A DNA stretch of 13,878 nucleotides. Source: a virus (lineage: Duplodnaviria > Heunggongvirae > Uroviricota > Caudoviricetes). This document shows positions 7,362-8,155 of this stretch, piece by piece. The translations under genes and the position numbers were made by a program. Every line of letters begins with the position of its first letter. Position 1 is the stretch's first letter. The DNA lies in the IMG/VR virus record IMGVR_UViG_2529293142_000032, positions 1 through 13,878 of that record; one strand, written 5' to 3'. The notes under the pieces are model-generated. The model worked only from the letters and a program-made list of their open reading frames with translations. It ran no database searches and had not been told where the DNA came from.

Positions 7362-7634
7362 TCAGTCGCCCGTCCATTTCCTGAATGCGCTGCCGTTGGG
7401 CTGATGCAGTCCCATTTCCTTTTGCGTCCGGCTTATTGCGGCTTTTGCATCACCGTACTGATCCAGCTTCACGGGTGGGCGTGCTGCCTTACGGATACAT
7501 TCCGCGCGACGTTTTGCCGCCTGCTCTCGTTCCTTATCAGTGTTCACCAGCCGCATCACCTCAGCCCATCGGGCCGCTGCTCTCCGGTACAGTCCCTTAG
7601 CCTCCAGCTCTTCCGCCTTACTGTCATGAATCAT
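7362..7634 (-). CDS. PerC-family transcriptional regulator-like protein (~90 aa from the internal ATG)
   Basis: MIHDSKAEELEAKGLYRRAAARW is paralogous to 1382..1678. Its ATG overlaps the stop of the FinO-like gene (ATGA). Confidence 0.5.
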   Translation of the reverse strand: MIHDSKAEELEAKGLYRRAAARWAEVMRLVNTDKEREQAAKRRAECIRKAARPPVKLDQYGDAKAAISRTQKEMGLHQPNGSAFRKWTGD

Positions 7635-8155
7635 GCGGCTGGTTTCTCCTTTGCTGCCTGGCGCTGACGTTTGCACCTTTCATTCAGCGCCATCAGTCGT
7701 ATTTCTGCGTCCTGCTGTTCCGATGGTGTCACCTCGCCACAAGGCTGGCCTTTCAGGTCGTAACGTGCTCCACCAGCAACCAGGGCACGGTAATAGCGCG
7801 GACACTGCGCATAAGATGCCAGCGCCGCACGTAATGTACCGAGTCCGAACTTCATCCCCCTGGTAGCGATATCCTGCATCATGTCGTCGAATATCCCCAC
7901 CTTCAGCGGCTTCGGTGCTTCCCTATTGAACAGGTCAGGCCACAGCTCAATCAGGCGGTTAACCCGTCGGCGGTTTTTGCGCTGGCGTCTGGTCATATGC
8001 CGCCACGGTGTCGCTTCTGTGGACTTCTGTTTATTGTGCTGTTGAGCCTTCTTCTGATTACCGGGCATCACTTTATGTGCCGATGTGGTTTTGTCCGGCT
8101 TTCCACTCCGGCTTTTCATGTCCCCGCTTTTGTGGTTCAGTGTCAGTGTTATCAT
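7631..8155 (-). CDS. ProQ/FinO-domain RNA-binding protein
   Basis: The segment LIELWPDLFNREAPKPLKVGIFDDMMQDI...LRAALASYAQCPRYYRAL...RYDLKGQPCGEV aligns closely with the N-terminal FinO domain of ProQ. It is preceded by a basic Lys/Arg/Gln-rich N-terminus. Confidence 0.75.
   Translation of the reverse strand: MITLTLNHKSGDMKSRSGKPDKTTSAHKVMPGNQKKAQQHNKQKSTEATPWRHMTRRQRKNRRRVNRLIELWPDLFNREAPKPLKVGIFDDMMQDIATRGMKFGLGTLRAALASYAQCPRYYRALVAGGARYDLKGQPCGEVTPSEQQDAEIRLMALNERCKRQRQAAKEKPAA

What the first reader, a model, noticed from the sequence alone, without database searches (positions are those of the whole stretch)
7631..8155. ProQ/FinO-domain RNA chaperone encoded inside the replication operon of a satellite-like element
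The similarity to the ProQ N-terminal FinO domain is strong. FinO-family proteins are best known from conjugative plasmids and chromosomes; finding one co-transcribed with a helicase, ori, SSB and a PerC-like regulator suggests RNA-based control of replication or of host and helper gene expression.
Basis: partly seen in the sequence, partly recalled or inferred. Interest (0 to 1): 0.5.

Follow-up and report, generated by a model that had tools for sequence, protein, structure and literature searches.

The report
FinO-type RNA-binding gene in phage satellite
The ORF really does encode a FinO/ProQ-family RNA-binding protein, sitting as an optional gene just after the replication genes of an E. 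coli phage satellite (PICI); databases already annotate it this way, but nobody has tested its RNA target or its function.

Summary
ORF 7631-8155 (-) encodes a 174-aa protein that matches Pfam ProQ/FinO (E=1e-23, 84 bits against a cutoff of 27). It is predicted to adopt the FinO fold, with FinO 1dvo as the best structural match. The Tyr/Arg 3'-end pocket and the N-cap Arg, which bind terminator hairpins in RocC and ProQ, are conserved.

The protein is neither a ProQ nor a FinO orthologue. It scores below both NCBIfam cutoffs and has no Tudor C-terminal domain. It belongs to a compact enterobacterial subfamily with a disordered basic N-terminal extension.

The element is an E. coli phage-inducible chromosomal island (PICI): alpA, icd, DUF4222, P4-type primase, iteron ori, ssb, finO-like, perC, and no virion genes.

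Across 76 related IMG/VR loci the gene lies just after a replicase and ori, sometimes with an ssb gene between. At least three unrelated replicase families occupy that position. In 51 of 53 loci its stop codon overlaps the perC start (ATGA). In 19 capsid-forming PICIs it occurs without perC.

The gene is optional: only 3 of 80 satellites with the same primase carry it. It evolves under purifying selection.

I found no partner RNA. The target and function, including replication control, remain inference. RefSeq and a 2026 paper already annotate such genes, so this is a new member of a known kind and of moderate interest.

The parts
7631..8155 (-). CDS of the 174-aa FinO-family RNA-binding protein
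   Evidence: ORF. Pfam PF04352 E=1.1e-23. FinO fold by AF2 plus Foldseek. dN/dS 0.15-0.37 against homologues.
7658..7972 (-). FinO/ProQ domain (residues 62-166). Includes K85, D91, R109 (N-cap Arg), Y121, R131, D133 and G136, which correspond to ProQ K35, D41, R58, Y70, R80, D82 and G85.
   Evidence: Pairwise alignment to ProQ and FinO. Y121, R131, K85, D91 and G136 are invariant in 38 homologues, and R109 and D133 are 90% or more conserved. The roles of these residues are taken from PMC7192607 and PMC9674577.
8012..8155 (-). N-terminal extension (residues 1-48), variable, lysine/glutamine-rich and predicted disordered. It starts with the conserved motif M-x-T-L-T-[IL]-N-[RH]-K.
   Evidence: pLDDT below 50 for residues 1-3 and 7-48. 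Alignment A1.
7964..8011 (-). Conserved basic Trp motif TPWRHMTRRQRKNRRR (residues 49-64) leading into helix 1
   Evidence: Nearly invariant in A1. Helix 56-71 in the model.
7631..7634 (-). ATGA overlap of the finO-like stop codon and the perC start codon (translational coupling)
   Evidence: Sequence. The same 4-nt overlap occurs in 51 of 53 finO-perC loci, with GTGA in one more.
7362..7634 (-). perC-family gene (90 aa from the ATG at 7634), the last gene of the operon
   Evidence: Pfam PF06069 E=5e-34. This perC allele is found at DNA level only in finO-positive loci: up to about 64 of 77 finO-positive loci (48 to 64 per 100-nt bin) against 0 of 76 finO-negative loci.
7285..7316 (-). Intrinsic-terminator-like hairpin plus U-run that ends the operon. 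It is a possible 3'-end ligand of the FinO-like protein.
   Evidence: Terminator scan. Sequence-unrelated hairpin plus U-run elements also follow perC in L002, L003 and L017, with a weak one in L016; L001 and L007 carry the same terminator as the window.
8200..8230 (-). Perfect 12-bp hairpin spanning the ssb stop codon, 45 nt upstream of the finO-like start. It has no U-run.
   Evidence: Inverted repeat I22.
8212..8654 (-). ssb gene, frameshifted in this window (A5 where EC12 has A6). The OB fold is in ORF 8292-8654 and the acidic tip DDDLPF is in another frame.
   Evidence: Pfam SSB. Alignment to EC12.
8651..8896 (-). 81-aa conserved satellite ORF (phrog_1231) between ori and ssb
   Evidence: PHROG E=1.5e-48.
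8945..9180 (.). Replication origin: at least 10 GGTGAACAG(T) iterons in both orientations around an AT-rich core
   Evidence: Repeat families D1, D2, D4 and D15 and inverted repeats I1-I19.
9184..11016 (-). P4/D5-type primase-helicase (610 aa)
   Evidence: Pfam D5_N, DUF5906 and Pox_D5. TIGR01613 at 95 bits, below its cutoff of 108.7.
11937..11966 (-). Best sigma-70-like promoter in the window (TTGACA-18-TATGTT), flanked by GTGTACAC palindromes. It is the presumed promoter of the operon icd ... primase-ori-ssb-finO-perC.
   Evidence: Promoter scan, 10 of 12 matches. Sequence.
12811..13029 (-). alpA-type HTH regulator of the satellite
   Evidence: Pfam HTH_17 E=1.4e-11. Same gene order as annotated PICIs.

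Best explanation
Shown: the ORF encodes a FinO-family RNA-binding protein. It is the penultimate gene of the long early/replication operon of an E. coli phage-inducible chromosomal island: promoter near 11950, then icd-like, DUF4222, primase, ori, orf81, ssb, finO-like and perC, ending at the terminator at 7316-7285. The protein has a folded FinO domain with an intact 3'-nucleotide pocket (Y121, R131) and N-cap arginine (R109). A roughly 50-residue disordered basic extension and a conserved Trp-containing basic motif precede the domain.

Inferred: like FinO, FopA, RocC and ProQ, it clamps the base of a hairpin and the 3' tail of terminator-type RNAs. The basic extension would then protect those RNAs from decay and promote or block pairing. 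Because it is made from the satellite's early operon, it would appear only once that operon is on.

I think its most likely job is post-transcriptional tuning of the satellite's own transcripts. Candidates include the 3' end of its own operon and the sense/antisense pairs produced by convergent transcription in the alpA control region. It would act as an optional enhancer, just as FinO is optional for the FinP/traJ system of F-like plasmids.

The identity and architecture are near-certain. RNA binding at 3'-terminal hairpins is probable. The target and the biological outcome are unproven.
For: Family, fold and residues: with residue roles from PMC9674577 and PMC7192607.

Purifying selection: dN/dS is 0.10-0.38 in the domain (most pairs 0.13-0.29) and 0.2-0.5 in the N-terminal extension.

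Operon layout: same strand throughout, an ATGA overlap with perC, no minus-strand terminator-like site from 11016 to 7362, and a terminator right after perC.

Recurrent position directly after replicase, ori and sometimes ssb: this holds in most of 76 IMG/VR loci and in E. coli, E. albertii and E. ruysiae islands. The replicases are D5-type primase, DUF927 or AAA_25, each with different iterons.

Precedent: the characterised element-encoded FinO-domain proteins (FinO, FopA, PcnR) act on RNAs of their own element (review PMC9977716).

Raw material for sense/antisense pairing exists in the element. A plus-strand operon (11846-12538), with a terminator at 12642-12671, converges on alpA (and direct reading).
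Against: - No partner RNA was identified. Rfam at E<=1 finds no FinP, C4 or other sRNA.
- Apart from the finO-perC cassette itself, no window segment is specific to finO-positive satellites.
- Synonymous-site diversity along finO and perC shows no clear dip that would betray an overlapping RNA element.
- The candidate plus-strand RNA at 7186-7283 lies in a region found in only 3 of 5426 genomes.
- The gene is dispensable. It is absent from 77 of 80 satellites with the same primase. It is frameshifted in ABU 83972 and XH992.
- Its tight linkage to perC fits a host-directed accessory role just as well. PerC family members are known as regulators of host virulence genes.
- Co-transcription and expression timing were not measured.
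Confidence: 0.4

Rival explanations
1. Host- or helper-directed accessory regulator. The finO-like/perC cassette is cargo, a 'moron' that reprogrammes host or helper-phage gene expression. The FinO-like protein would bind host sRNAs or 3'UTRs, competing or cooperating with ProQ, or helper phage transcripts. PerC would act at the transcriptional level.
For: The gene sits in a variable slot and is optional. It is co-inherited with one particular perC allele, with an ATGA overlap in 51 of 53 loci. PICI PerC homologues are reported to activate or repress the host LEE island (PMC6092414 and PMC11773190). Chromosomal ProQ regulates virulence genes in EHEC, according to the abstract of PMC12426089. 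No cis-encoded partner RNA was found.
Against: In 19 of 76 loci (capsid-forming PICIs) the gene occurs without perC, in line between ssb and the capsid genes. The characterised element-borne FinO proteins act on their own element. Most carrier strains sampled here, such as EC12 from stool and ABU 83972, are not described as LEE pathogens. PADLOC gives no defence-system hit.
Confidence: 0.3
2. Dedicated replication (copy-number) repressor in the manner of FopA or PcnR. The protein would bind an antisense RNA, or a leader hairpin of the primase/rep mRNA or the ori transcript, and limit replicase synthesis or priming.
For: The gene follows replicase and ori in satellites with at least three unrelated replicases and different iterons. 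In ssb-less elements its start codon lies within about 20 nt of the last iteron. FopA and PcnR set the precedent (PMC9977716). A Vibrio satellite-plasmid paper lists a ProQ/FinO-like regulator beside parA and repA (PMC13230959).
Against: Only 3 of 80 satellites with a primase 88-99% identical carry the gene, so that replicon runs without it. I saw no antisense promoter/terminator pair or conserved leader structure at the primase 5' end. Satellites replicate in a burst after induction, so plasmid-style copy-number homeostasis has no obvious use.
Confidence: 0.15
3. Inter-element warfare. The protein would mimic plasmid FinO and act with FinP of co-resident F-like plasmids, or with similar antisense RNAs of other elements, to shut down their transfer or replication.
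For: FinO is the best structural match. By eye, the N-terminus (MTTLTINRKP ... TPWR) resembles an IncFIC FinO (RPKLTLRRKP ... TPAWK). FinO can cross-regulate another plasmid through RepX (PMC8136791, title and abstract). PICIs are reported to carry systems against competing elements (quoted in PMC13612085).
Against: Identity to FinO is only about 30%. hhalign aligns the domain only, not the N-terminus. The NCBIfam FinO score is half the cutoff. No data on co-occurrence with plasmids were obtained.
Confidence: 0.05
4. Decaying passenger gene without a current function.
For: Frameshifted copies occur in ABU 83972 and XH992. Truncated 113-135-aa forms are common among database homologues. The neighbouring ssb and other genes in this window are themselves disrupted.
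Against: dN/dS is well below 1 across lineages. The RNA-binding residues are invariant. The intact gene is present in hundreds of genomes and keeps a conserved translational coupling.
Confidence: 0.05

Closest known systems
FinO (fertility inhibition protein of F-like plasmids; PDB 1dvo)
   Same: It is encoded on a mobile element and has a similar size (174 against 186 aa). It has a FinO domain preceded by a disordered basic N-terminal extension that contains a Trp. FinO is the best structural match (Foldseek E=1.6e-6, rmsd 1.9 A). The Tyr/Arg pocket and the N-cap Arg (FinO R121 corresponds to R109) are conserved.
   Different: Identity is only about 30%. The NCBIfam FinO score is 66 bits against a cutoff of 136. 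The helix between the Trp and the domain is much shorter. There is no FinP or traJ in the element. It is chromosomal and satellite-borne, never on plasmids in 5426 E. coli genomes.
ProQ N-terminal FinO domain (E. coli; PDB 5nb9)
   Same: It is the best sequence match (phmmer 6e-12; family profile 2e-19). Residues equivalent to K35, D41, R58, Y70, R80, D82 and G85 are conserved.
   Different: There is no linker or Tudor C-terminal domain. The equivalent of ProQ K54 is not conserved (L105). The NCBIfam ProQ score is 58 bits against a cutoff of 127. It is an accessory gene, not a core gene.
FopA and PcnR (FinO-domain copy-number repressors of IncI1 and IncI2 plasmids)
   Same: They are small FinO-domain proteins encoded by a replicating mobile element and are functionally tied to its replication genes (PMC9977716). 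The gene here sits right after the replicase and ori.
   Different: No Inc-like antisense RNA or repR-like leader was found here. The best real plasmid-borne relatives are at most about 51% identical over part of the domain, leaving aside three E. coli records at 73-79% that include a 4.8-Mb mislabelled chromosome.
ProQ/FinO-like genes already listed in phage satellites (Enterobacter cloacae PICI AVS0889; Vibrio cf-PISP satellite-plasmids)
   Same: They occupy the same kind of element with the same annotation (PMC13612085; PMC13230959). RefSeq annotates the E. coli genes as 'ProQ/FINO family protein'.
   Different: Those reports are annotation only. The conserved position after ori, the ATGA coupling to perC, the presence in capsid-forming PICIs and the frequency data are worked out here.

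Membership tests
FinO/ProQ domain family (Pfam PF04352) | Significant match to the family HMM above the curated threshold | tested here: met
   83.7 bits against GA 27, E=1.1e-23, covering 104 of 109 profile positions.
FinO/ProQ domain family (Pfam PF04352) | FinO fold (helical bowl with a beta-hairpin) | tested here: met
   The AF2 model has high confidence over residues 51-170, with helices at 56-71, 88-99, 105-116, 119-127 and 144-170 and strands at 130-132 and 138-141. Foldseek hits at E<=1e-3 are all FinO-domain structures.
FinO/ProQ domain family (Pfam PF04352) | Conserved 3'-nucleotide pocket (Tyr plus Arg; RocC Y87/R97, ProQ Y70/R80) and N-cap Arg (RocC R75, ProQ R58) | tested here: met
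   Y121 and R131 are invariant and R109 is at least 90% conserved in 38 homologues.
FinO/ProQ domain family (Pfam PF04352) | Binds hairpin-plus-3'-tail RNA; RNA chaperone activity | not testable with these tools
   Needs EMSA, CLIP or a three-hybrid assay.
ProQ (equivalog NF003434) | Full-length architecture (FinO NTD, linker, Tudor CTD) and score above the equivalog cutoff | tested here: not met
   57.6 bits against a cutoff of 127. Only profile positions 9-120 of 205 are matched. The protein ends 8 residues after the Pfam domain match, at residue 174.
FinO proper (NF010317) | Score above the subfamily cutoff; partner FinP/traJ in the same element | tested here: not met
   66.3 bits against a cutoff of 136. 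Rfam finds no FinP or traJ leader in the window.
FopA / PcnR | Sequence relatedness; antisense Inc RNA or repR leader target | not tested
   Reference plasmid records were not in the collections. No analogous RNA was seen, but none was specifically modelled.
Phage-inducible chromosomal island (PICI) | int, alpA and pri/rep followed by ori, in a conserved order | tested here: met
   alpA (HTH_17), primase and the iteron ori are in the window. The integrase lies just beyond the window end in the 99.7% identical EC12 island, which sits next to tRNA-Ile.
Phage-inducible chromosomal island (PICI) | Satellite size and no tail or lysis genes (classical PICIs also lack capsid genes) | tested here: met
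   The island is about 17 kb in EC12. Pfam and PHROG searches of the window ORFs that were scanned gave no structural hits, only a TerS-like fragment. Close relatives include capsid-forming PICIs.
Phage-inducible chromosomal island (PICI) | Induction, replication and packaging by a helper phage | not testable with these tools
   Experimental. This copy carries an IS256-family transposase at its end and frameshifted ssb and HTH genes, so it may be defective.

The most novel reading that the evidence does not exclude
Enterobacterial phage satellites carry their own FinO-class RNA chaperone, translationally coupled to a PerC regulator. It could form an RNA-based control layer of the satellite life cycle. 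For example, it could catalyse pairing of the convergent alpA and counter-operon transcripts, or stabilise the early operon through its terminator. Alternatively it could hijack helper-phage or host sRNA networks. Either way it would be the first RNA-chaperone-dependent circuit described in PICIs, and a fourth functional class of FinO-domain proteins in E. coli.
Probability: 0.25. Interest if true: 0.65.

Novelty: new member of a known kind. Interest (0 to 1): 0.4.

Why it matters
FinO-domain proteins are one of the three major classes of bacterial sRNA chaperones. Only a handful have known targets: ProQ, FinO, FopA, PcnR, RocC and NMB1681. PICIs are intensively studied, yet no RNA-chaperone-based regulation has been described for them.

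This subfamily is detectable in about 20% of complete E. coli genomes (1079 of 5426), and always on the chromosome. Its position is fixed after the satellite origin, and it is usually translationally coupled to perC. That makes it an easy and well-defined target for CLIP or RIL-seq and deletion studies.

Such work could show whether satellites use RNA chaperones to time replication and packaging, or to interfere with helpers, plasmids or host virulence regulation. If the protein merely acts as another narrow-specificity FinO paralogue, the result is incremental.

Tried and rejected
1. I looked for a cis-encoded partner sRNA. Rfam at E<=1 gave only a sub-threshold mir-395 hit inside the ori palindromes.

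2. A promoter-plus-terminator pair predicts a structured plus-strand RNA of about 100 nt at 7186-7283 (z=-3.3). Its region exists in only 3 of 5426 genomes. It also overlaps palindromes that look like the operator of the 57-aa gene. I rejected it as a general partner.

3. Association test: I compared coverage of the window by 77 finO-positive and 76 finO-negative satellite loci. Only finO itself and its linked perC allele are finO-specific.

4. Synonymous-site diversity along finO and perC shows only mild dips, at codons 11-25 and 36-50. This is not convincing.

5. Similarity of the N-terminus to FinO is visible by eye. Neither hhalign nor the NCBIfam FinO model aligns it, so I keep it only as a lead.

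6. The genome-contig scan returned just 7 loci because the peptide patterns were too strict.

7. FopA and PcnR reference plasmids (HE654725, AP005147, KP347127) are not in the plasmid collection, so I made no direct comparison.

8. PADLOC gave no defence-system hit for the gene or its neighbours.
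Full report
**Observation.** The window has an uninterrupted minus-strand ORF at 7631-8155 (174 aa, ATG start). Its product matches Pfam PF04352 (ProQ/FinO) with E=1.1e-23 and 83.7 bits against a gathering cutoff of 27. The match covers residues 62-166 and almost the whole profile. phmmer against PDB sequences finds only FinO-domain proteins: ProQ NTD 5nb9 at 6.4e-12, FinO 1dvo at 1.9e-10, NMB1681, Lpp1663 and RocC. A profile built from 38 homologues raises these to 2e-19 and 2e-16.

An AlphaFold2 model built on that alignment is confident for residues 51-170 (block means 83-94). It predicts residues 1-48 to be disordered. Foldseek against the PDB returns FinO (E=1.6e-6, rmsd 1.9 A over 102 columns), RocC and NMB1681 as the only significant matches.

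**What kind of FinO-domain protein.** The protein scores well below the NCBIfam cutoffs for FinO proper (66 against 136 bits) and for ProQ (58 against 127 bits). It lacks the ProQ linker and Tudor domain. Of 1.84 billion 50%-identity representatives, 2013 are relatives at E<=1e-3 but only 6 at E<=1e-30. It therefore belongs to a compact subfamily inside a very large superfamily.

The word-index search found 239 clusters, nearly all from Escherichia, Shigella, Salmonella and Citrobacter. Those with a source name are called 'ProQ/FinO family protein', or in a few cases ProP effector/activator.

In an alignment of 38 members the invariant or nearly invariant positions include K85, D91, R109, Y121, R131, D133 and G136. 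By the pairwise alignments these correspond to ProQ K35, D41, R58, Y70, R80, D82 and G85. In RocC and ProQ these residues form the 3'-nucleotide pocket and the N-cap phosphate clamp, and RNA binding requires them (PMC9674577; PMC7192607). The equivalent of ProQ K54 is not conserved.

The N-terminus is a variable Lys/Gln-rich stretch that begins with a conserved M-x-T-L-T-[IL]-N-[RH]-K motif. It ends in a nearly invariant TPWRHMT[KR]RQRKNRRR motif. By eye this recalls the N-terminus of an IncFIC FinO (RPKLTLRRKP ... TPAWKVRKQ). Profile comparison aligns only the domain, so I treat the resemblance as a lead and not a result. According to the review PMC9977716, such extensions supply the chaperone (duplexing) activity in this family.

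Pairwise dN/dS against eight homologues is 0.10-0.38 in the domain (most pairs 0.13-0.29) and 0.2-0.5 in the extension. This indicates purifying selection.

**Context.** The window is E. coli chromosomal DNA. It is 99.7% identical over 7300-9200 to an island of strain EC12. In EC12 that island lies between tRNA-Ile and nfeF and ends in a tyrosine integrase just beyond the window.

Read along the minus strand, the gene order is:
- alpA-type HTH (12811-13029);
- a control region with a strong promoter-like site (11966-11937, 10 of 12 matches) flanked by GTGTACAC palindromes;
- an icd-like gene, then DUF4222;
- a P4/D5-type primase-helicase (9184-11016);
- an iteron field with at least 10 GGTGAACAG copies (8945-9180);
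- an 81-aa phrog_1231 gene, then ssb;
- the FinO-like gene, then perC;
- an intrinsic-terminator-like hairpin at 7316-7285.

These assignments rest.

No minus-strand terminator-like site lies between the primase and perC. The stop codon of the FinO-like gene overlaps the perC start codon as ATGA. No virion genes were found among the window ORFs scanned; only a TerS-like fragment turned up.

This is the architecture of Gram-negative phage-inducible chromosomal islands (PMC6092414; PMC11773190). Close relatives with a 97% identical primase are capsid-forming PICIs. 'Satellite-like element' is therefore correct.

**How general is the arrangement.** At blastn sensitivity, FinO-like DNA is present in 1079 of 5426 complete E. 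coli genomes. That amounts to 1543 places, all chromosomal, with up to 9 per genome. In 319 genomes the match covers at least 80% of the gene. A 300-nt probe across the finO-perC junction is covered at 80% or more in 241 genomes. The ssb-finO junction of this window is found in only 2 genomes.

In 76 IMG/VR loci carrying the gene, most loci with enough upstream sequence had a recognised replicase and/or ssb directly upstream. The replicase is a D5-type primase, a DUF927 protein or an AAA_25 helicase, and each type has different iterons. In ssb-less elements the start codon is within about 20 nt of the last iteron.

Fifty-three loci have perC immediately downstream. In 51 of them the overlap is ATGA, and in one more it is GTGA. 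Nineteen loci are capsid-forming PICIs in which the gene lies between ssb and an 82-aa ORF that precedes the capsid gene, with no perC.

The gene is also optional. Among 80 satellites whose primase is 88-99% identical to the window's, only 3 have it. The usual arrangement there is ssb followed by a divergent perC. Copies in ABU 83972 and XH992 are frameshifted. More divergent copies occur in other islands without perC.

The gene is thus a recurrent but dispensable cassette. It occupies the first variable slot after the replication module.

**Search for an RNA partner.** Rfam at E<=1 finds no FinP, C4 or other known RNA.

A plus-strand promoter-like site and a strong terminator predict a structured RNA of about 100 nt at 7186-7283. 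That region occurs in only 3 genomes, and it coincides with palindromes that look like the operator of the next gene.

I compared 77 finO-positive with 76 finO-negative satellite loci. The only finO-specific window segments are the gene itself and its linked perC allele. The conserved control region (11600-11900 and 12200-12600) is equally common in both sets.

Synonymous diversity along finO and perC shows no convincing trough.

The remaining candidates are generic:
- the operon's own terminator, since sequence-unrelated hairpin-plus-U-run elements also follow perC in three other lineages, though not in the finO-less cf-PICI where the operon reads on;
- the plus-strand three-gene operon (11846-12538), whose terminator at 12642-12671 faces the incoming alpA transcript and so creates natural sense/antisense RNA (and direct reading);
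- host, helper or plasmid RNAs.

**Mechanism.** The following are shown:
- family membership;
- the fold;
- an intact RNA 3'-end pocket;
- purifying selection;
- the position in the satellite early operon;
- translational coupling to perC.

From the family's established behaviour (PMC9674577; PMC9977716) I infer that the protein binds the base of a hairpin plus the 3' tail of terminator-type RNAs. Through its basic extension it would then stabilise them or alter their pairing.

My preferred reading (about 0.4) is post-transcriptional tuning of the satellite's own transcripts, as an optional enhancer. The analogy is the optional role of FinO in the FinP/traJ system. The fixed position after ori and the 3-out-of-3 precedent of FinO, FopA and PcnR support this reading. 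A strict copy-number-repressor version of it is less likely (0.15), because nearly identical replicons do without the gene.

A host- or helper-directed accessory role together with PerC is almost as likely (0.3). The reasons are the variable slot, the strict co-inheritance with one perC allele, and published effects of PICI PerC homologues on the LEE island. Anti-plasmid FinO mimicry and a functionless relic are minor possibilities.

**Comparison with what is known, and novelty.** RefSeq already annotates these genes as ProQ/FINO family proteins. A 2026 survey lists a ProQ/FinO-like chaperone as a PICI accessory gene in Enterobacter (PMC13612085). A Vibrio study mentions one in satellite-plasmids (PMC13230959). 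The family review notes phage- and island-borne members in general terms.

The papers I opened on E. coli PICIs and related satellites do not mention the gene. The literature searches turned up no functional study.

The finding is therefore a correct annotation-level observation of a new, uncharacterised member (a distinct subfamily) of a known kind. What this analysis adds is the conserved position after ori across replicase types, the ATGA coupling to perC, the occurrence in capsid-forming PICIs, the frequencies, and the negative result for a cis-encoded partner. Interest is moderate (0.4). It would rise if an RNA circuit controlling the satellite life cycle, or helper or host RNAs, were demonstrated.

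Noticed in passing
window 8212-8654 (-), homopolymer at about 8322-8327: The ssb gene is frameshifted relative to strain EC12 (A5 instead of A6). The OB fold ORF ends early, and the acidic C-terminal tip DDDLPF is left in another frame. This is either a real pseudogene or a homopolymer sequencing error.
   Followed up: yes
window 8200-8230: A perfect 12-bp inverted repeat with a 7-nt loop spans the ssb stop codon, 45 nt upstream of the FinO-like start. No U-run follows, so it is not a terminator. It could be an RNA processing or stability element. A weak promoter-like site (8255-8227, minus strand) overlaps it.
   Followed up: partly
window 7129-7290: The intergenic region after perC has back-to-back terminators: minus strand at 7316-7292 and plus strand at 7255-7276 followed by T8. 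It also has two long palindromes (7129-7224) upstream of a 57-aa ORF (6950-7123). A plus-strand RNA of about 100 nt (7186-7283) would fold well (z=-3.3), but the region exists in only 3 of 5426 E. coli genomes.
   Followed up: yes
window 11846-12810: A plus-strand three-gene operon (102, 41 and 65 aa) has its own terminator (GGCCACC-GTAGCG-GGTGGCC-TTTTCTTT, 12642-12671). It converges on alpA (12811-13029, minus strand). Read-through from alpA would be antisense to it. Three GTGTACAC palindromes surround the minus-strand promoter at 11966-11937. Parts of this region are conserved at DNA level in about half of both finO-positive and finO-negative satellites.
   Followed up: partly
window 10900-11016; L041 6707-6810: The first 35 or so residues of the D5-type primase (MKKAPNLKHQP.DKMTEVIIFAGSDAW.HAK.W) are shared with otherwise unrelated DUF927 replicases of other PICIs. 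The corresponding DNA is conserved in 56 of 77 finO-positive and 74 of 76 finO-negative loci. It looks like a common N-terminal module.
   Followed up: no
window 1382-1678 (-) and 7362-7634 (-): The island carries two PerC-family paralogues that are about 41-45% identical. The copy of the second one in EC12 is annotated as a pseudogene with an internal stop.
   Followed up: partly
window 1-1209 (-): An IS256/Mutator-family transposase (Pfam Transposase_mut, E=9e-120) sits at the island's distal end. The EC12 island has no IS there, so this copy is rearranged or truncated.
   Followed up: partly
window 3897-4836 (-): ORFs 3897-4220 and 4241-4429 together match a single 177-aa HTH-domain gene in related islands (L001, L007), so the gene appears split here. 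The adjacent 136-aa ORF (4426-4836) hits a small-terminase PHROG (phrog_57, E=6e-7). This is probably the packaging-redirection module.
   Followed up: partly
window 5186-5440 (-) and 8651-8896 (-): There are two paralogues of the same small satellite protein family (phrog_1231), 54% identical. One lies between ori and ssb, and the other lies in the accessory region. Function is unknown.
   Followed up: no
L006 6883-7605; L041 9041-10284; L094 5961-6654: The slot after ssb in related PICIs holds perC alone, finO alone or finO plus perC. In capsid-forming PICIs the same 82-aa ORF follows either one before the capsid gene. finO-negative elements carry a perC allele that is unrelated at DNA level.
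   Followed up: yes
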